Source: Escherichia coli (GTDB lineage: Bacteria > Pseudomonadota > Gammaproteobacteria > Enterobacterales > Enterobacteriaceae). From it: a stretch of 64,000 bases of DNA. Positions 43,581 through 50,959 of this stretch are shown one piece after another (the stretch's first letter is position 1; every line of letters starts with the position of its first letter). The notes under the pieces were generated by a model. The model saw nothing but the letters and a program-made list of their open reading frames with translations. It did not search any database and was not told the DNA's origin. Location of the stretch: assembly GCF_024700885.2 (NCBI RefSeq), contig NZ_CP117016.1, one strand, 5' to 3'. The translations under genes and the position numbers were made by a program.

Positions 43581-44453
43581 ATGAATCCGTCTGATGCCAT
43601 TGAGGCAATTGAAAAACCGCTCTCCTCCCTGCCTTACTCGCTTTCCCGTCACATCCTGGAACATCTGCGCAAACTCACCCGTCACGAACCCGTGATTGGC
43701 ATTATGGGTAAAAGCGGGGCCGGTAAATCCTCACTCTGTAATGCACTGTTTCAGGGGGAGGTCACCCCGGTCAGTGATGTTCACGCCGGCACCCGGGAAG
43801 TACGGCGCTTCCGTCTGAGTGGCCACGGTCACAGCATGGTTATCACTGACCTGCCCGGGGTGGGCGAGAGCCGGGACAGGGATGCAGAGTATGAGGCCCT
43901 GTACCGTGACATTCTGCCTGAACTTGACCTGGTACTGTGGCTGATTAAAGCCGATGACCGTGCCCTGTCTGTGGATGAGTATTTCTGGCGACACATCCTG
44001 CACCGGGGACATCAGCGGGTACTGTTTGTGGTGACGCAGGCCGACAAAACGGAGCCCTGCCATGAATGGGATATGGCCGGTATTCAGCCTTCTCCTGCAC
44101 AGGCACAGAATATTCGCGAAAAAACGGAGGCGGTATTCCGTCTGTTCCGGCCCGTACATCCGGTTGTGGCCGTATCGGCCCGCACCGGCTGGGAACTGGA
44201 TACGCTGGTCAGTGCGCTCATGACAGCGCTTCCCGACCATGCCGCCAGTCCCCTGATGACCCGACTGCAGGACGAGCTGCGCACGGAATCTGTCCGGTCT
44301 CAGGCCCGTGAACAGTTTACCGGTGCGGTGGACCGGATATTTGACACGGCGGAGAGCGTCTGTATTGCCTCTGTTGCACGCACGGTTCTGCGTGCCGTCC
44401 GTGACTCGGTGGTCTCTGTTGCCCGCGCTGTATGGAACTGGATTTTCTTCTGA
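43581..44453 (+). CDS. yeeP: CP4-type prophage GTPase (YeeP/YkfA/YfjP family)
   Basis: P-loop GIMGKSGAGKSSLCNALF; DLPG switch motif; precedes flu as in CP4-44. Confidence 0.75.
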   Translation: MNPSDAIEAIEKPLSSLPYSLSRHILEHLRKLTRHEPVIGIMGKSGAGKSSLCNALFQGEVTPVSDVHAGTREVRRFRLSGHGHSMVITDLPGVGESRDRDAEYEALYRDILPELDLVLWLIKADDRALSVDEYFWRHILHRGHQRVLFVVTQADKTEPCHEWDMAGIQPSPAQAQNIREKTEAVFRLFRPVHPVVAVSARTGWELDTLVSALMTALPDHAASPLMTRLQDELRTESVRSQAREQFTGAVDRIFDTAESVCIASVARTVLRAVRDSVVSVARAVWNWIFF

Positions 44454-44825: not shown

Positions 44826-47672
44826 ATGAAACGACATCTGAACACCAGCTACAGGCTGGTATGGAATCACATTACGGGTACCCTGGTGGTGGCCTCCGAA
44901 CTGGCCCGCTCACGGGGAAAACGCGCCGGTGTGGCGATTGCGCTGTCTCTTGCTGCTGTCACATCAGTCCCGGCACTGGCTGCTGACACGGTTGTACAGG
45001 CGGGAGAAACCGTGAGCGGCGGAACACTGACAAATCATGACAACCAGATTGTTCTCGGTACGGCCAACGGAATGACCATCAGTACCGGTCTGGAGTATGG
45101 GCCGGATAACGAGGCCAATACCGGCGGGCAATGGGTACAGGATGGCGGCACAGCCAGTAATACCGCCATCAGCAGCGGCGGTCTCCAGTTTGTAGGTGCC
45201 GGGGGAAAGGCTACAGACACAATAATCAATGAAGGAGGCGGACAAAGTCTGAAGGGACTGGCACTGAACACCACGCTGAATGGTGGCGAGCAGTGGATGC
45301 ATGAGGGTGCGATAGCCACAGGAACCGTCATTAATGATAAGGGCTGGCAGGTCGTCAAATCCGGCGCAATGGCAACCGACACGGTTGTGAATACCGGCGC
45401 GGAAGGGGGACCGGATGCAGAAAATGGTGATACCGGGCAGTTTGTTCGCGGAAATGCCGTACGTACCACCATCAATAAAAATGGTCGTCAGATTGTGGCT
45501 GCTGAAGGAACAGCAAATACCACTATGGTTTATGCCGGCGGAGACCAGACTGTACATGGCTACGCGCTGGATACCACACTGAACGGCGGTAACCAGTATG
45601 TGCACAACGGCGGTACAGCGTCTGACACTGTTGTTAACAGTGACGGCTGGCAGGTGGTGAAGGATGGTGCAGTGGCTGAGAATACCACCGTTAATCACAA
45701 GGGCAAACTGCAGGTGAATGCCGGTGGTGTCGCTGTTGATGTTACTCAGAATCAGGGAGGGGCACTGGTTACCAGTACTGCTGCAACGGTTCTTGGCAGC
45801 AACCGTCTGGGCAATTTCGCGGTGGAAAACGGTAAGGCTGACGGCGTGGTTCTGGAATCCGGTGGTCGCCTGGATGTACTGGAGAGCCATTCAGCACAGA
45901 ATACCCTGGTGGATGACGGCGGTACCCTGGCAGTGTCTGCCGGTGGTAAGGCAACAGGTGTCACCATGACATCCGGTGGTGCCCTGATAGCAGACAGTGG
46001 TGCCACTGTTGAGGGTACCAATGCCAGCGGCAAGTTCAGTATTGATGGCATATCCGGTCAGGCCAGCGGCCTGCTGCTGGAAAATGGCGGCAGCTTTACG
46101 GTCAATGCCGGGGGACAAGCCAGCAACACCACGATCGGACATCGTGGAACACTGACGCTGGCTGCCGGGGGAAGTCTGAGTGGCAGAACACAACTCAGTA
46201 AAGGCGCCAGTATGGTACTGAATGGTGATGTGGTCAGTACCGGCGATATTGTTAACGCAGGGGAGATTCGCTTTGATAATCAGACGACACAGGATGCCGT
46301 GCTGAGCCGTGCTGTTGCAAAAGGCGACGCCCCGGTAACGTTCCATAAACTGACCACCAATAACCTCACCGGCCAGGGCGGCACCATCAATATGCGTGTT
46401 CGCCTTGATGGCAGCAATGCCTCTGACCAGCTGGTGATTAATGGTGGTCAGGCAACCGGCAAAACCTGGCTTGCGTTTACAAATGTCGGAAACAGTAACC
46501 TCGGGGTGGCAACCACCGGACAGGGTATCCGGGTTGTGGATGCACAGAATGGTGCCACCACAGAAGAAGGTGCATTTGCCCTGAGCCGCCCGCTTCAGGC
46601 CGGCGCCTTTAACTACACCCTGAACCGTGACAGCGATGAAGACTGGTACCTGCGCAGTGAAAATGCTTATCGTGCTGAAGTCCCCCTGTATGCCTCCATG
46701 CTGACACAGGCAATGGACTATGACCGGATTCTGGCAGGCTCCCGCAGCCATCAGACCGGTGTAAACGGTGAAAATAACAGCGTCCGTCTCAGCATTCAGG
46801 GCGGTCATCTCGGTCACGATAACAACGGCGGTATTGCCCGTGGAGCCACGCCGGAAAGCAGCGGCAGCTATGGCTTCGTCCGTCTGGAGGGTGACCTGCT
46901 CAGAACAGAGGTCGCCGGTATGTCTGTGACCGCGGGGGTATATGGTGCTGCTGGCCATTCTTCCGTTGATGTTAAGGATGATGACGGTTCCCGCGCCGGC
47001 ACGGTCCGGGATGATGCCGGCAGCCTGGGCGGATACCTGAATCTGGTACACACGTCCTCCGGCCTGTGGGCTGACATTGTGGCACAGGGAACCCGCCACA
47101 GCATGAAAGCGTCATCGGACAATAACAACTTCCGCGCCCGGGGCCGGGGCTGGCTGGGCTCACTGGAAACCGGTCTGCCCTTCAGTATCACTGACAACCT
47201 GATGCTGGAGCCACAACTGCAGTACACCTGGCAGGGGCTCTCCCTGGATGACGGCCAGGATAACGCCGGTTATGTGAAGTTCGGGCATGGCAGTACACAA
47301 CATGTGCGTGCCGGCTTCCGTCTGGGCAGCCACAACGATATGACCTTTGGCGAAGGCACCTCATCCCGTGACACCCTGCGCGACAGTACAAAACACCGTG
47401 TGAGTGAACTGCCGGTGAACTGGTGGGTACAGCCTTCTGTTATCCGCACTTTCAGCTCCCGGGGTGACATGAGCATGGGTACAGCCGCCGCCAGCAGTAA
47501 CATGACGTTCTCACCGTCCCGGAATGGCACGTCACTGGACCTGCAGGCCGGACTGGAAGCCCGTGTCCGGGAAAATATCACCCTGGGCGTTCAGGCCGGT
47601 TATGCCCACAGCGTCAGCGGCAGCAGCGCTGAAGGCTATAACGGTCAGGCCACGCTGAGTGTGACCTTCTGA
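44826..47672 (+). CDS. flu: antigen 43 self-associating autotransporter adhesin
   Basis: MKRHLNTSYRLVWNHITGTLVVASELARSRGKRAGVAIALSLAAVTSVPALAADTVV... extended signal peptide, beta-helix repeats, C-terminal beta-barrel. Confidence 0.9.
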   Translation: MKRHLNTSYRLVWNHITGTLVVASELARSRGKRAGVAIALSLAAVTSVPALAADTVVQAGETVSGGTLTNHDNQIVLGTANGMTISTGLEYGPDNEANTGGQWVQDGGTASNTAISSGGLQFVGAGGKATDTIINEGGGQSLKGLALNTTLNGGEQWMHEGAIATGTVINDKGWQVVKSGAMATDTVVNTGAEGGPDAENGDTGQFVRGNAVRTTINKNGRQIVAAEGTANTTMVYAGGDQTVHGYALDTTLNGGNQYVHNGGTASDTVVNSDGWQVVKDGAVAENTTVNHKGKLQVNAGGVAVDVTQNQGGALVTSTAATVLGSNRLGNFAVENGKADGVVLESGGRLDVLESHSAQNTLVDDGGTLAVSAGGKATGVTMTSGGALIADSGATVEGTNASGKFSIDGISGQASGLLLENGGSFTVNAGGQASNTTIGHRGTLTLAAGGSLSGRTQLSKGASMVLNGDVVSTGDIVNAGEIRFDNQTTQDAVLSRAVAKGDAPVTFHKLTTNNLTGQGGTINMRVRLDGSNASDQLVINGGQATGKTWLAFTNVGNSNLGVATTGQGIRVVDAQNGATTEEGAFALSRPLQAGAFNYTLNRDSDEDWYLRSENAYRAEVPLYASMLTQAMDYDRILAGSRSHQTGVNGENNSVRLSIQGGHLGHDNNGGIARGATPESSGSYGFVRLEGDLLRTEVAGMSVTAGVYGAAGHSSVDVKDDDGSRAGTVRDDAGSLGGYLNLVHTSSGLWADIVAQGTRHSMKASSDNNNFRARGRGWLGSLETGLPFSITDNLMLEPQLQYTWQGLSLDDGQDNAGYVKFGHGSTQHVRAGFRLGSHNDMTFGEGTSSRDTLRDSTKHRVSELPVNWWVQPSVIRTFSSRGDMSMGTAAASSNMTFSPSRNGTSLDLQAGLEARVRENITLGVQAGYAHSVSGSSAEGYNGQATLSVTF

Positions 47673-47786
47673 CAGAACCATCGCCTCTCTGTGGTCCCGG
47701 TCATCATGATCGGGACCCGGACCGGCGCAACGGATATTCAACGCCACATTCGCTGGCATTAACAATAACATGATATTCATCACGGA

Positions 47787-50309
47787 GTGACTATGTTACA
47801 GATAGTCGGCGCGCTGATCCTGCTGATCGCAGGATTTGCCATTCTTCGCCTTTTGTTCAGAGCATTAATCAGCACGGCTTCTGCGCTGGCAGGGCTCATA
47901 TTGCTGTGTCTGTTCGGCCCGGCCTTACTGGCTGGCTATATCACCGAACGCATAACCCGGTTGTTCCATATTCGCTGGCTGGCAGGCGTATTTCTGACGA
48001 TTGCCGGAATGATCATCAGCTTCATGTGGGGACTTGATGGTAAACATATCGCGCTGGAGGCTCACACCTTTGACTCTGTGAAATTTATTCTGACCACCGC
48101 TCTCGCCGGTGGTCTGCTGGCTGTTCCCCTGCAGATCAAAAACATTCAGCAGAACGGGATCACACCAGAAGATATCAGCAAGGAAATTAACGGGTATTAC
48201 TGCTGTTTTTATACTGCCTTTTTCCTTATGGCGTGTTCTGCATGCGCACCATTGATCGCGTTACAGTACGATATTTCACCGTCACTGATGTGGTGGGGCG
48301 GGTTGTTGTACTGGCTGGCTGCATTAGTGACGCTGCTATGGGCGGCCAGCCAAATCCAGGCGCTGAAAAAACTGACCTGTGCCATCAGCCAGACACTGGA
48401 AGAACAACCGGTGCTCAACAGTAAATCGTGGCTGACCAGTTTGCAAAACGATTACAGCCTTCCTGACTCACTGACGGAGCGCATCTGGCTGACGCTCATT
48501 TCTCAACGGATTTCCCGGGGAGAGCTGAGGGAATTTGAACTGGCAGACGGAAACTGGTTACTGAACAATGCCTGGTATGAAAGAAACATGGCAGGGTTTA
48601 ACGAACAGTTGAAAGAGAACCTGTCATTCACACCTGATGAACTGAAAACGCTCTTCCGGAACCGCCTGAATTTATCACCGGAAGCGAATGACGATTTTCT
48701 CGATCGTTGCCTGGACGGCGGTGACTGGTATCCCTTTTCAGAAGGTCGCCGTTTTGTATCATTCCATCACGTGGATGAGCTTCGTATCTGTGCCTCCTGC
48801 GGGCTGACAGAAGTACATCATGCCCCGGAAAATCATAAGCCGGATCCGGAATGGTACTGCTCCTCTCTTTGTCGCGAAACAGAAACACTGTGTCAGGAAA
48901 TTTATGAACGCCCTTACAACAGCTTTATTTCCGATGCAACGGCGAATGGTCTGATTCTCATGAAACTGCCGGAAACCTGGAGTACAAATGAGAAAATGTT
49001 TGCTTCCGGAGGGCAGGGACATGGGTTTGCCGCTGAACGGGGAAACCATATTGTCGACAGAGTCCGTCTGAAAAACGCACGGATCCTCGGTGATAATAAT
49101 GCCAGAAATGGAGCAGACAGACTGGTCAGCGGAACAGAAATCCAGACGAAATATTGTTCAACTGCAGCCCGTAGCGTCGGTGCGGCATTCGACGGACAAA
49201 ACGGACAGTATCGTTACATGGGAAATAATGGCCCCATGCAACTGGAAGTCCCCCGTGATCAGTATGCCGGCGCTGTTGAAACCATGAGGAATAAGATCCG
49301 CGAAGGTAAAGTACCCGGTGTAACCGATCCCGCAGAAGCATCCCGGCTGATTCGTCGGGGACATCTGACTTATACTCAGGCCCGTAATATCACCCGGTTC
49401 GGGACCATCGAATCGGTCACTTATGATATTGCCGAGGGTTCGGTTGTCAGTCTGGCGGCCGGAGGGATCAGTTTTGCCCTGACGGCATCGGTCTTCTGGC
49501 TCAGCACCGGCGATCGCGATGCTGCCCTGCAGACAGCTGCTGTCCAGGCAGGAAAAACCTTCACCCGCACACTGGCTGTCTACGTCACAACCCAGCAACT
49601 CCACCGGCTCAGTGTTGTTCAGGGTATGCTGAAGCACATTGATTTTTCGACTGCCAGCCCGGCTGTTCGACTGGCTCTTCAGAAGGGGACCGGTGCAGGA
49701 AATATCAGTGCCCTGAACAAAGTGATGAAGGGTACGCTGGTGACATCTCTGGCACTGGTAGCTGTCACAACCGGCCCTGACATGATCAAAATGTTGCGGG
49801 GACGGATCTCCGGTACGCAGTTCATCAGGAATCTTGCCGTGGCATCTTCCGGTGTGGCAGGTGGTGCTGTCGGGTCAGTGGCGGGCGGAATACTGTTCAG
49901 TCCACTGGGACCATTTGGTGCACTGACAGGGCGTGTGGTTGGCGGTGTTCTGGGGGGAATGATTGCCTCCGCTGTATCAGGAAAAATTGCCGGAGCGCTG
50001 GTTGAAGAAGATCGCGTCAAAATTCTGGCAATGATTCAGGAGCAGGTGACATGGCTTGCCGGCAGTTTCCTGCTGACCGGACATGAGATTGAAAATCTGA
50101 ACGAGAATCTGGCCCGTGTTATCGATCAGAATGCTCTGGAGATCATTTTCGCCGCCGGTATACAACAACGGGCCGCGACCAATATGTTAATCAAACCACT
50201 GGTGGTCAGTATCATCAGGCAACGCCCCGTCATGGAATATGATGCATCCCATCTCGGCAATATGGTTAACCGACTGGAAGAAGCATTACCCCCGGAGTTA
50301 CCGGCATAA
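47787..50309 (+). CDS. yeeR: CP4-44-type inner-membrane protein (YeeR-like), 840 aa
   Basis: Multiple N-terminal TM helices; position directly downstream of flu as in CP4-44. Confidence 0.6.
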   Translation: MTMLQIVGALILLIAGFAILRLLFRALISTASALAGLILLCLFGPALLAGYITERITRLFHIRWLAGVFLTIAGMIISFMWGLDGKHIALEAHTFDSVKFILTTALAGGLLAVPLQIKNIQQNGITPEDISKEINGYYCCFYTAFFLMACSACAPLIALQYDISPSLMWWGGLLYWLAALVTLLWAASQIQALKKLTCAISQTLEEQPVLNSKSWLTSLQNDYSLPDSLTERIWLTLISQRISRGELREFELADGNWLLNNAWYERNMAGFNEQLKENLSFTPDELKTLFRNRLNLSPEANDDFLDRCLDGGDWYPFSEGRRFVSFHHVDELRICASCGLTEVHHAPENHKPDPEWYCSSLCRETETLCQEIYERPYNSFISDATANGLILMKLPETWSTNEKMFASGGQGHGFAAERGNHIVDRVRLKNARILGDNNARNGADRLVSGTEIQTKYCSTAARSVGAAFDGQNGQYRYMGNNGPMQLEVPRDQYAGAVETMRNKIREGKVPGVTDPAEASRLIRRGHLTYTQARNITRFGTIESVTYDIAEGSVVSLAAGGISFALTASVFWLSTGDRDAALQTAAVQAGKTFTRTLAVYVTTQQLHRLSVVQGMLKHIDFSTASPAVRLALQKGTGAGNISALNKVMKGTLVTSLALVAVTTGPDMIKMLRGRISGTQFIRNLAVASSGVAGGAVGSVAGGILFSPLGPFGALTGRVVGGVLGGMIASAVSGKIAGALVEEDRVKILAMIQEQVTWLAGSFLLTGHEIENLNENLARVIDQNALEIIFAAGIQQRAATNMLIKPLVVSIIRQRPVMEYDASHLGNMVNRLEEALPPELPA

Positions 50310-50384
50310 CGGCTATTCTGCGCCTTTTACGCTTTATCACCTGATTTGTCAGTGTCATCGTCATGACTCAGAGAGGTAAATACC

Positions 50385-50840
50385 ATGATTCACCTGTTCA
50401 AAACCTGCATGATTACCGCCTTCATTCTGGGGTTAACGTGGTCTGCCCCACTCCGGGCACAGGATCAACGTTACATCAGTATACGCAATACAGATACGAT
50501 ATGGCTCCCGGGAAATATTTGTGCTTACCAGTTCCGGCTGGATAATGGCGGAAACGATGAAGGATTTGGCCCCCTCACCATCACTCTGCAACTCAAAGAC
50601 AAATATGGTCAGACGCTGGTGACCAGAAAAATGGAAACGGAAGCTTTTGGTGACAGTAATGCCACGCGAACCACAGACGCATTTCTGGAAACGGAGTGCG
50701 TGGAAAATGTCGCCACAACCGAAATCATCAAAGCAACTGAAGAAAGTAACGGCCATCGTGTCAGTCTGCCGTTATCGGTTTTCAATCCCCAGGACTACCA
50801 TCCACTGCTGATTACCGTTTCCGGAAAAAACGTTAACTGA
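50385..50840 (+). CDS. hypothetical secreted protein (151 aa) with signal peptide
   Basis: MIHLFKTCMITAFILGLTWSAPLRA signal-peptide-like N-terminus; SD GAGAGG upstream. Confidence 0.5.
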   Translation: MIHLFKTCMITAFILGLTWSAPLRAQDQRYISIRNTDTIWLPGNICAYQFRLDNGGNDEGFGPLTITLQLKDKYGQTLVTRKMETEAFGDSNATRTTDAFLETECVENVATTEIIKATEESNGHRVSLPLSVFNPQDYHPLLITVSGKNVN

Positions 50841-50863
50841 TCCCTGAAGTCAGTTTCATGCTT

Positions 50864-50901
50864 CAGCCTCTGTCACAACGCGTGGCAGAGGCTTTTTATT
50901 T
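50864..50901 (+). terminator. rho-independent terminator
   Basis: CAGCCTCTG...CAGAGGC hairpin followed by TTTTTATTT. Confidence 0.5.
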
Positions 50902-50914
50902 ATCAGGAGAAAAC

Positions 50915-50922
50915 AGATATGC
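50915..50922. repeat. 8-bp target-site duplication AGATATGC (left copy) of IS66-family insertion
   Basis: Identical 8-mer flanks both ends of the element (50915-50922 and 53356-53363). Confidence 0.7.
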
Positions 50923-50959
50923 GTAAGCGTGCAGCAAGAACCGTATTGACGGGGATGTG

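What the first reader, a model, noticed from the sequence alone, without database searches (positions are those of the whole stretch)
47787..50309. Full-length yeeR-like membrane protein
The gene after flu encodes 840 aa here, whereas I recall the K-12 yeeR product as much shorter. This allele may represent the intact ancestral form, of unknown function.
Basis: partly seen in the sequence, partly recalled or inferred. Interest (0 to 1): 0.2.

Follow-up and report, generated by a model that had tools for sequence, protein, structure and literature searches.

The report
Intact yeeR gene; K-12 copy truncated
This is the complete, widespread form of the E. coli gene yeeR, already known to be cut short in laboratory strain K-12; its untested protein looks like a membrane-anchored DNA-cutting enzyme of the kind bacteria use against viruses.

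Summary
An uninterrupted 840-codon frame lies at 47787-50309 (+), right after an Ag43/flu gene. The real start is most likely the ATG at 47793, which has a GGAG 5 nt upstream, giving 838 aa.

K-12 MG1655 matches only the first 1527 nt. Homology then jumps to window 55091, inside yeeS. K-12 YeeR is therefore 507 shared residues plus EER (510 aa).

None of this is new. RefSeq flags K-12 yeeR as a pseudogene "missing C-terminus", and two papers (mBio 2016, BMC Genomics 2019) state it. The full-length gene is in 1800 of 5426 complete E. coli genomes. Homologues of 805-850 aa occur across Gamma- and Betaproteobacteria. dN/dS between two intact alleles is 0.21.

Function is unpublished. My analysis gives this architecture:
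- about six membrane helices
- a four-cysteine cluster
- a restriction-endonuclease-like core with invariant E415, D442, Q451-x-K453
- a glycine-zipper helical region

The C-terminal module occurs in more than 1000 protein clusters with varied fusions. It is distantly related to PADLOC's untested defence candidate PDC-M09B and sits in defence islands. A membrane-tethered nuclease-fold defence protein is the best guess, but it is unproven. Interest in the finding as stated is low.

The parts
47793..50309 (+). yeeR coding sequence, 838 aa plus stop.
   Evidence: ORF list and translation. RefSeq CDS in the 100%-identical strain MLI114 starts at this ATG. The 838-aa cluster P0001 has 15,556 members and carries Pfam PF27347 YeeR_C.
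47784..47787 (+). Shine-Dalgarno GGAG, 5 nt upstream of ATG 47793
   Evidence: Read directly from the sequence.
47793..48392 (+). N-terminal membrane domain (aa 1-200), about six hydrophobic helices
   Evidence: Hydropathy segments. AF2 helices 2-57, 61-82, 93-120, 125-159, 163-204, pLDDT about 75-92. The K+R distribution of the loops across 31 homologues places the following domains in the cytoplasm (inference).
48405..48782 (+). Tandem winged-helix domains (aa 205-330)
48789..48893 (+). Cysteine cluster (aa 333-367): invariant C333, C336, C356, C360, C367. Probably a zinc ribbon.
   Evidence: Invariant columns in the 31-sequence alignment. Zinc binding is inferred and was not tested.
49005..49427 (+). 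Restriction-endonuclease-like (PD-(D/E)xK fold) domain (aa 405-545). Invariant E415 (49035-49037), D442 (49116-49118), Q451 (49143-49145), K453 (49149-49151).
49437..50012 (+). Helical, glycine-zipper-rich region (aa 549-740), probably membrane-associated
   Evidence: Invariant G690, G694, G698, G713, G717, G721. Hydrophobic segments at 549-570 and 715-737. Weak Pfam C19orf12 hit at 690-783. A Lactococcus homologue is annotated 'glycine zipper family protein'. pLDDT is low over aa 689-736.
50013..50306 (+). C-terminal helical domain (aa 741-838)
   Evidence: AF2 helices 738-831. Conserved L761, E765, P802, R811.
49314..55090 (.). Stretch absent from K-12 MG1655: yeeR codons 508-838, irmA, DUF905, DUF932, the antirestriction gene and the first 24 nt of the yeeS (JAB) gene. 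Here it also contains an IS66 element.
   Evidence: blastn of the K-12 locus against the window. Junction sequence and K-12 translation. Annotations of both loci.
47765..49179 (.). Stretch deleted in an ST131 genome (strain 4433). It removes the ribosome-binding site, the start and about 462 codons of yeeR.
   Evidence: blastn of L021 against the window. RefSeq note 'missing N-terminus'.
44826..47672 (+). Ag43/Cah autotransporter gene (flu/agn43), first gene of the published agn43-yeeR-irmA operon
   Evidence: NCBIfam auto_Ag43 E = 0 and Pfam AIDA, AC_1, Autotransporter, ESPR. RefSeq CDS. Operon described in PMC4807369.
50385..50840 (+). irmA (interleukin receptor mimic protein A), downstream of yeeR
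   Evidence: Pfam IrmA E 2e-37. RefSeq annotation.
50865..50893 (+). Terminator-like hairpin plus T-run after irmA
   Evidence: Consensus scan only. The number of terminator-like sites in the region is not above the shuffled expectation.

Best explanation
Shown: this is the intact yeeR gene (838 aa) of a CP4-44-like integrative island. It is the middle gene of the published, OxyR-repressed agn43-yeeR-irmA operon. K-12 carries a remnant. A deletion fused codon 507 to the yeeS region. The deleted stretch is 5.8 kb as measured in this window, or about 3.3 kb without the IS66 that sits here.

Shown at the level of prediction: the protein has about six N-terminal membrane helices, two winged-helix domains, a four-cysteine cluster, a restriction-endonuclease-fold core with invariant E415...D442...Q451-x-K453, a glycine-zipper helical region and a helical C-terminus.

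Inferred: the winged helices, cysteine cluster and nuclease core face the cytoplasm and bind and cut nucleic acid close to the inner membrane. The glycine-zipper half either anchors or oligomerises the protein, or damages the membrane once the protein is triggered.

The most likely role is a stand-alone conflict protein carried as island cargo, acting against phages or other incoming DNA. In E. coli it would be expressed phase-variably together with Ag43. My confidence is about 0.97 for the identity and truncation part and about 0.4 for the defence-nuclease mechanism.
For: Identity and truncation. Literature.

Selection on the whole length: dN/dS is 0.21 overall and 0.13 for the part lost in K-12. 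Homologues of 805-850 aa occur in many genera.

Fold:
- AF2 full-length model with mean pLDDT 77.5 and nuclease-domain model with pLDDT 82.
- E, D, Q and K are invariant in both alignments.

Modularity: the C-terminal module (aa about 400-815) occurs in 1167 50%-identity clusters of 480-1335 aa. N-terminal fusions include Sel1, TPR and PARG plus ADP-ribosylglycohydrolase.

Defence link:
- Weak colinear PADLOC hits to PDC-M09B.
- A PDC-M09B HMM hits 38 of 246 YeeR-family proteins at E <= 0.01, against 0 of the shuffled and 0 of the reversed copies. The hits fall on the nuclease core and the glycine-zipper region.
- Shared motifs: HG..AE, AD....G...Q[ST]K[FY], [VI]PKD, RG.I.
- In an Enterobacteriaceae island the 68%-identical YeeR homologue lies directly after WYL, PDC-M09A (E 3e-120) and PDC-M09B (E 5e-214), and before DndBCDE.
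- Other members lie between BREX PglZ and DarTG/PglX, in an island with type II CBASS, and beside HepT/MNT, HicAB, a TIR protein and RES-Xre.
- One member follows a WYL gene on a lactococcal plasmid. Another sits between the endolysin and a recombinase gene of a temperate phage.

YeeR homologues occur without Ag43 or IrmA.
Against: - No experiment links YeeR or PDC-M09 to phage resistance. PDC systems are explicitly untested candidates.
- No Pfam, NCBIfam or PDB sequence match was found for that domain.
- Profile-profile homology to PDC-M09B is weak: hhalign probability 19-52% over 51-60 columns.
- The neighbourhood evidence is about a dozen hand-inspected loci with no background control. One locus (Dyella) shows no mobile or defence context.
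- The family is almost absent from sequenced plasmids and phages.
- yeeR has been lost independently in K-12 and ST131. That fits dispensable cargo of any kind, not defence specifically.
- The glycine-zipper region is modelled with low confidence.
Confidence: 0.45

Rival explanations
1. YeeR is an accessory factor of its operon partners. It would help export, anchor or regulate the adhesin Ag43 or the secreted IrmA protein.
For: Co-transcription of agn43-yeeR-irmA and OxyR control are reported in UPEC (PMC4807369). irmA also lies next to yeeR in a Serratia island, in the opposite order. YeeR is a membrane protein.
Against: IrmA is released in an MG1655 agn43 mutant that lacks functional Ag43 and YeeR. 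Ag43 functions in K-12, where yeeR is truncated. In strain 042 irmA has its own promoter. Homologues in Pseudomonas, Methylomonas, Dyella, Herbaspirillum, Deefgea, Alcaligenes and an Enterobacteriaceae island have neither Ag43 nor IrmA nearby. A winged-helix plus nuclease-fold cytoplasmic domain does not suggest a secretion helper.
Confidence: 0.06
2. YeeR serves the mobile island itself rather than host immunity. Examples would be entry exclusion of related elements, handling of island DNA at the membrane, or an addiction or toxin function whose nuclease is self-directed.
Against: No conserved immunity or antitoxin partner gene lies next to it: the neighbouring genes differ in every locus examined. 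It also occurs outside recognisable islands and embedded in BREX. It is dispensable for island persistence in K-12 and ST131.
Confidence: 0.2
3. The nuclease fold is not catalytic. YeeR would be a membrane sensor or scaffold that binds a nucleic acid or nucleotide ligand and acts only through its membrane-active glycine-zipper half. Alternatively it has a membrane or envelope-stress role unrelated to foreign DNA.
For: Q replaces the acidic residue in the (D/E)xK position. The glycine-zipper region gives weak hits to C19orf12, DUF1269 and LeoB/LeoBC C-terminal regions. It is expressed from an OxyR-repressed operon.
Against: E415, D442, Q451 and K453 are invariant across very divergent architectures. 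That is expected for an active site. To my knowledge the D...QxK variant is the catalytic motif of active Mrr- and MspJI-type enzymes; this rests on recall and was not tested here. The weak glycine-rich hits may be compositional.
Confidence: 0.2
4. The long frame is a decaying or chance ORF with no function.
For: It is annotated only as 'hypothetical protein'. It has been lost repeatedly within E. coli.
Against: dN/dS is 0.21. There are hundreds of full-length homologues across proteobacterial classes with 50+ invariant residues. The AF2 model is confident.
Confidence: 0.01

Closest known systems
E. coli K-12 YeeR (b2001, CP4-44 prophage; 510 aa)
   Same: Same gene. The first 1527 nt are 99.9% identical and it occupies the same position after flu/agn43.
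   Different: K-12 lacks codons 508-838: the end of the nuclease-like domain, the whole glycine-zipper region and the C-terminal domain. It ends in three foreign residues (EER). RefSeq treats it as a pseudogene.
PDC-M09B, component of PADLOC 'phage defence candidate' system PDC-M09 (Payne et al., bioRxiv 10.1101/2024.01.29.577857)
   Same: Same order of an HG..AE / D...QxK nuclease-like core followed by a glycine-zipper helical region. Weak but colinear HMM matches. A YeeR homologue lies directly downstream of a true PDC-M09A/B pair.
   Different: Only remote similarity: E about 1e-5 and hhalign probability 19-52%. PDC-M09B is about 480 aa, has no N-terminal membrane, winged-helix or cysteine modules, carries no PF27347 hit and works with a partner, PDC-M09A. 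That partner is absent from this window. PDC-M09 itself is untested.
Mrr / MspJI-type (type IV) restriction endonucleases
   Different: No sequence match to Mrr_cat or any nuclease Pfam family. YeeR is membrane-anchored and carries a large glycine-zipper C-terminal half that those soluble enzymes lack.
Glycine-zipper membrane proteins (C19orf12-like, DUF1269, YcfJ-type)
   Same: GxxxG-rich helical hairpins. Weak Pfam hits. Source names include 'glycine zipper family protein' and 'uncharacterized protein YcfJ'.
   Different: Those are small proteins without nuclease-fold or winged-helix domains. All hits are below the curated cut-offs.

Membership tests
YeeR family (Pfam PF27347 YeeR_C) | Match to the YeeR_C model | tested here: met
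   The 99%-identical cluster representative P0001 and about 115 homologues carry precomputed PF27347, named YeeR_C. The model is not in the local Pfam copy, so my own scan could not show it.
YeeR family (Pfam PF27347 YeeR_C) | Orthology with K-12 yeeR (same locus, near-identical 5' part) | tested here: met
   99.9% identity over nt 1-1527, flanked by flu on the left and yeeS on the right.
YeeR family (Pfam PF27347 YeeR_C) | Full-length colinear similarity to 805-850-aa homologues | tested here: met
   30-68% identity over 94-100% of the length. 53 invariant columns are spread from C333 to R811.
PD-(D/E)xK (restriction-endonuclease-like) superfamily | Core helix-strand-strand-strand-helix-strand fold | tested here: met
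PD-(D/E)xK (restriction-endonuclease-like) superfamily | Conserved E (helix 1), D (start of strand 2) and (D/E/Q)xK (strand 3) | tested here: met
   E415, D442, Q451 and K453 are invariant in A1 and A2 and sit on the expected elements.
PD-(D/E)xK (restriction-endonuclease-like) superfamily | Metal-dependent nuclease activity | not testable with these tools
   Needs biochemistry.
PD-(D/E)xK (restriction-endonuclease-like) superfamily | Sequence match to a curated nuclease family | tested here: not met
   No Pfam, NCBIfam or PDB sequence hit for aa 400-548.
PADLOC PDC-M09 candidate defence system | B protein matches the PDC-M09B model along its length | tested here: inconclusive
   Only partial hits at E 6e-6 and 4e-5. 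A true PDC-M09B scores E 5e-214. The family-to-family signal is above shuffled and reversed controls, but hhalign probability is 19-52%. I read this as a distant relative, not a member.
PADLOC PDC-M09 candidate defence system | Adjacent PDC-M09A partner gene | tested here: not met
   None of seven neighbouring products in the window hits PDC-M09A. The partner is present only in the Enterobacteriaceae island L023.
PADLOC PDC-M09 candidate defence system | Demonstrated anti-phage activity | not testable with these tools
   PDC systems are described as 145 untested candidates.
Mrr-like type IV restriction enzymes | Match to the Mrr catalytic domain family | tested here: not met
   No Pfam hit. 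There is only a fold-level and motif-level resemblance.
Eleos / LeoABC dynamin-like defence system | Dynamin-like GTPase domain in the protein | tested here: not met
   YeeR has no GTPase domain. Family members give only weak LeoB/LeoBC C-terminal hits in the glycine-rich region at E 1e-4 to 1e-6. The separate island GTPase at 43581-44453 hits LeoBC at E 2e-8.

The most novel reading that the evidence does not exclude
Full-length YeeR is a single-gene, inner-membrane-tethered nuclease that protects the cell from phage or other incoming DNA. It would have a winged-helix plus D-QxK arrangement resembling Mrr, joined to a glycine-zipper membrane module, and would found a large unrecognised defence superfamily (YeeR_C / PDC-M09B-like, more than 1000 clusters). 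In E. coli it would be switched on and off together with the phase-variable adhesin Ag43, so aggregating 'ON' cells would also be the immune ones. K-12 and ST131 would have lost this immunity.
Probability: 0.3. Interest if true: 0.55.

Novelty: already known. Interest (0 to 1): 0.2.

Why it matters
As stated, the finding matters little. The difference in length between K-12 and wild yeeR is documented in RefSeq and in at least three papers, and the intact gene is in a third of complete E. coli genomes.

The open question is what YeeR does. It is a conserved 838-aa protein co-transcribed with a major adhesin in pathogenic E. coli. K-12, where most E. coli genetics has been done, lacks a working copy.

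The domain reading obtained here gives a concrete, cheap hypothesis to test: a membrane anchor, tandem winged helices, a cysteine cluster, a nuclease-fold core with an invariant catalytic-type motif and a glycine-zipper module, with kinship to an untested PADLOC defence candidate. If it holds, it would add a widespread defence family and link phase-variable aggregation with phase-variable immunity.

Tried and rejected
- **Family scans of YeeR.** Pfam, NCBIfam, PHROGs and PDB sequence searches gave nothing useful. There was only a sub-threshold C19orf12 hit, a tape-measure hit driven by glycine-rich composition, and Hsp70 fragments at E about 1.
- **Profile of the nuclease-like domain against PDB sequences.** Only L7Ae at E 0.07, judged chance.
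- **Foldseek of the whole model against PDB.** No hit at E <= 0.001. Long helical transporters dominate. Only the winged-helix matches had a high probability.
- **afdb50 fold search.** The library was not available.
- **hhalign of YeeR profiles against a single PDC-M09B or PDC-M09A sequence.** Uninformative, probability 2-3%.
- **Literature.** No paper links yeeR to anti-phage function, and no paper mentions PDC-M09 by name.
- **A conserved partner gene for YeeR.** Rejected, because the adjacent genes differ in every locus.
- **GTPase (43581-44453) plus YeeR as a split LeoBC-like system.** Not adopted. The GTPase is a core gene of this island type regardless of yeeR, and the LeoBC hits to the glycine-rich region are weak.
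- **Plasmid or phage origin.** Only 11 plasmid records, several of which look like mislabelled chromosomes, and one phage record.
- **tRNA scan.** No tRNA gene in the window.
Full report
**1. The observation**

An uninterrupted frame of 840 codons runs from GTG 47787 to the stop ending at 50309 on the + strand. It follows an Ag43/Cah autotransporter gene (NCBIfam auto_Ag43 E = 0; Pfam AIDA, AC_1, Autotransporter, ESPR). It precedes irmA (Pfam IrmA, E 2e-37).

A GGAG lies five bases before the ATG at 47793. RefSeq starts the identical gene of strain MLI114 at that ATG. The protein cluster that contains it is 838 aa with 15,556 member sequences.

Window 1-39504 is 100% identical to the MLI114 chromosome, and yeeR is 100% identical to the MLI114 copy.

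**2. Comparison with K-12**

A megablast of the ORF against 5426 complete E. coli genomes finds it in 2582. In 1800 of these at least 80% of the query is covered.

- K-12 strains match only nt 1-1527, at 99.9%.
- In the MG1655 locus, homology to the window ends at 49313 and resumes at 55091.
- The K-12 frame reads ...KIREGKVEER*. That is 507 shared residues plus three foreign ones, 510 aa in all.
- RefSeq annotates K-12 yeeR as a pseudogene, 'incomplete; missing C-terminus', followed 8 nt later by yeeS.
- The missing stretch (49314-55090) holds yeeR codons 508-838, irmA, DUF905, DUF932, an antirestriction gene and the first 24 nt of the JAB/yeeS gene.
- In this window the stretch also contains an IS66 element of about 2.4 kb (50923-53353). 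This follows from comparison with an IS-free ST131 locus. The ancestral K-12 deletion was therefore about 3.3 kb.

**3. The intact form is ancestral and under selection**

Homologues of 805-850 aa that cover 94-100% of the protein occur in Serratia, other Enterobacteriaceae, Methylomonas, Pseudomonas, Shewanella, Stutzerimonas, Herbaspirillum, Cupriavidus, Alcaligenes, Dyella, Deefgea, Cellvibrio and Stenotrophomonas.

A 31-sequence alignment has 53 invariant columns spread from C333 to R811. They include the part absent from K-12.

Between the window allele and a 96.9%-identical intact allele, dN/dS is 0.21 overall and 0.13 for codons 508-838.

A second, independent lesion exists. An ST131 genome has a clean deletion of window 47765-49179, which removes the start and about 462 codons.

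**4. The finding is already known**

- PMC4807369 (mBio 2016) defines the OxyR-repressed agn43-yeeR-irmA operon. It states that a large deletion in MG1655 disrupts yeeR. It shows that IrmA release needs neither Ag43 nor YeeR. It says YeeR's function remains to be elucidated.
- PMC9431211 adds that irmA has its own promoter in strain 042 and that insertions and deletions in flu-yeeR are frequent.
- PMC8614746 calls K-12 yeeR a pseudogene.
- Pfam now has a family PF27347 'YeeR_C'.

**5. What the protein looks like**

An AF2 model from the 31-sequence alignment has a mean pLDDT of 77.5. Its parts are as follows.

*Membrane domain.* Residues 1-200 form about six hydrophobic helices. Across homologues the loops after TM2, TM4 and TM6 are rich in K and R, and the loops after TM3 and TM5 are not. 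The positive-inside rule therefore places what follows in the cytoplasm (inference).

*Cysteine cluster.* C333, C336, C356 and C360 are invariant. A zinc ribbon is inferred.

*Nuclease-like core.* Residues 405-545 run helix-strand-strand-strand-helix-strand. E415 lies on the first helix, D442 at the start of strand 2, and Q451-x-K453 on strand 3. These four residues are invariant among full-length homologues and also among very divergent relatives.

The scores are modest, and no sequence-level family match exists. I file this as 'nuclease fold with a catalytic-type motif', not as a member of any named nuclease family. From my own knowledge, and untested here, D...QxK is the motif used by Mrr- and MspJI-type enzymes, and Mrr also pairs it with an N-terminal winged helix.

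*C-terminal half.* Residues 549-740 are helical with invariant glycines in GxxxG spacing (G690, G694, G698, G713, G717, G721) and two clearly hydrophobic segments. Model confidence is low over aa 689-736. Residues 741-838 are helical.

K-12 keeps everything up to residue 507. That includes the E/D/QxK residues. It loses the end of the nuclease-like domain and the whole C-terminal half.

**6. The wider family**

I searched residues 371-838 against 1.84 billion cluster representatives. This found 1167 proteins at E <= 0.001 and 586 at E <= 1e-30.

The module (about aa 400-815) sits at the N-terminus, middle or C-terminus of proteins of 480-1335 aa. Fusion partners include Sel1 repeats, TPR, a beta-helix-like region, and a microbial PARG plus ADP-ribosylglycohydrolase pair. 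Many members are about 480-570 aa and consist of the module alone, including sequences from low-GC organisms.

The membrane, winged-helix and cysteine front end is thus one of several exchangeable heads on a conserved unit of nuclease-like core plus glycine zipper.

**7. Link to defence candidates**

PADLOC-DB gives YeeR weak hits to PDC-M09B at E 6e-6 and 4e-5. Module-only relatives hit it colinearly over 340-390 residues at E 2e-8 and 2e-6.

In an Enterobacteriaceae island, the 68%-identical YeeR homologue P0008 has this gene order:
- GTPase, AlpA, YagK/YfjJ
- a WYL regulator
- a 281-aa gene
- a 481-aa gene
- YeeR
- ArsC, DndBCDE, a PIN protein

The 281- and 481-aa products are full-length PDC-M09A (E 3e-120) and PDC-M09B (E 5e-214).

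PDC-M09B carries the same motifs in the same order as YeeR:
- KHGEIAEQ against GHGFAAER
- APADYMIDGVDVQSKF against NGADRLVSGTEIQTKY
- HIPKD against EVPRD
- RGEINADEF against RGRISGTQF

The corresponding H, E, D, Q and K are invariant in 23 PDC-M09B homologues.

An HMM of those 23 sequences hits 38 of 246 YeeR-family proteins at E <= 0.01 and 146 at E <= 1. The shuffled copies gave 0 and 0, and the reversed copies 0 and 11. Matches are confined to the nuclease core and the glycine-zipper region. Profile-profile scores are only moderate: hhalign probability 19% and 52%.

I conclude that YeeR_C and PDC-M09B are probable distant relatives. YeeR is not a PDC-M09 member, and the window has no PDC-M09A.

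PDC systems are 145 untested candidates derived by 'guilt by embedding' (bioRxiv 10.1101/2024.01.29.577857).

**8. Genomic neighbourhoods**

| Source | Context |
|---|---|
| Metagenomic module-only member | Between BREX PglZ and DarT-NADAR plus PglX |
| Alcaligenes | Integrase island with type II CBASS, antirestriction and ParB |
| Herbaspirillum | Integrase island beside DUF6361-PLD genes |
| Deefgea | Two HepT/MNT pairs, an integrase and IS21 |
| Methylomonas | HicAB, a CAP12-type TIR protein and IS66 |
| Pseudomonas nunensis | A RES-Xre pair |
| Lactococcal conjugative plasmid | IS6-bounded WYL, YeeR_C protein, then a protein with a BnzA-like N-terminus; an Abi gene nearby |
| Oscillospirales phage | Between the endolysin and an invertase gene |
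| Serratia | A CP4-like island with irmA upstream of yeeR |
| Dyella | Nothing suggestive |

No partner gene is conserved across these loci. This fits a self-contained cargo gene of defence islands. It is a hand-inspected sample without a background control.

**9. Mechanism and confidence**

Firm (about 0.97): the gene's identity, its intactness here, and the deletions in K-12 and ST131.

Predicted with reasonable support: the domain architecture.

Inferred (about 0.4): the cytoplasmic winged-helix, cysteine and nuclease unit recognises and cuts nucleic acid at the inner membrane. The glycine-zipper half anchors or oligomerises the protein, or permeabilises the membrane on activation. The result would be defence against phage or other incoming DNA, expressed phase-variably with Ag43 in E. 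coli.

Rivals:
- An island-serving exclusion or toxin role (0.2).
- A non-catalytic sensor or membrane-stress role (0.2).
- An Ag43/IrmA helper (0.06). This is contradicted and by homologues that lack both genes.
- A functionless ORF (0.01).

**10. Verdict**

The finding is real and correctly interpreted, but it is already documented, so interest is low (0.2). The functional hypothesis is the only part that goes beyond the literature I could search, and it needs the simple experiments listed under next steps.

Noticed in passing
window 50923-53353: An IS66-family element (tnpA, tnpB, tnpC on the - strand) is inserted between irmA and the DUF905 gene. An ST131 locus without it overlaps the two flanks by 10 bp, which suggests a target-site duplication.
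   Followed up: partly
window 1-c.34500 (- strand): A complete type VI secretion cluster with Tle1-EAEC/Tli1 phospholipase effector and immunity genes, Hcp, VgrG and PAAR. tssK is frameshifted. This comes from the annotation of the 100%-identical MLI114 sequence. The yeeR island abuts it.
   Followed up: partly
window 47765-49179; locus L021: ST131 strain 4433 has a clean 1415-bp deletion that removes the yeeR start and about 462 codons. The gene called yeeR in some ST131 genomes is therefore a 5'-truncated remnant, a lesion independent of the K-12 one. By the spread of hits, about an eighth of matching genomes show this pattern.
   Followed up: partly
window 43581-44453: The island's small GTPase (YeeP/YkfA/YfjP type) gives PADLOC hits to the GTPase part of LeoBC (E 2e-8) and LeoA (E 4e-5) of the Eleos dynamin-like defence system. 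Glycine-zipper regions of YeeR_C and PDC-M09A proteins weakly hit the LeoB/LeoBC C-terminus. This could be compositional or could be a real link.
   Followed up: no
locus L023, 3761-9523: In an Enterobacteriaceae island (PDC-M09B 99% identical to a Citrobacter koseri protein), WYL, PDC-M09A, PDC-M09B and a YeeR homologue form a tight four-gene run next to DndBCDE. PDC-M09 may have a third, YeeR-type component in some genomes.
   Followed up: partly
locus L018, 7163-10520: In a Serratia island irmA lies upstream of yeeR, the reverse of the E. coli order, and there is no Ag43 gene. The irmA-yeeR linkage thus survives rearrangement within Enterobacterales, although published data show that IrmA secretion does not need YeeR.
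   Followed up: no
window c.55846-56908: In the identical MLI114 annotation, two genes downstream of the JAB/DUF987 genes are marked as pseudogenes with internal stops: an antitoxin gene and a YeeU-family antitoxin gene. The adjacent CbtA-family toxin gene is intact.
   Followed up: no
window c.38775-38914: A frameshifted, N-terminally truncated Hha/YmoA-family gene lies at the island's edge. Published work correlates extra hha copies with the yeeR-irmA cluster. Here the linked hha copy is decayed.
   Followed up: no
window 55067-55097: The K-12 deletion also clips the 5' end of the JAB/RadC-like gene. K-12 yeeS (148 aa) starts at an internal Met of the 158-aa gene present here.
   Followed up: partly
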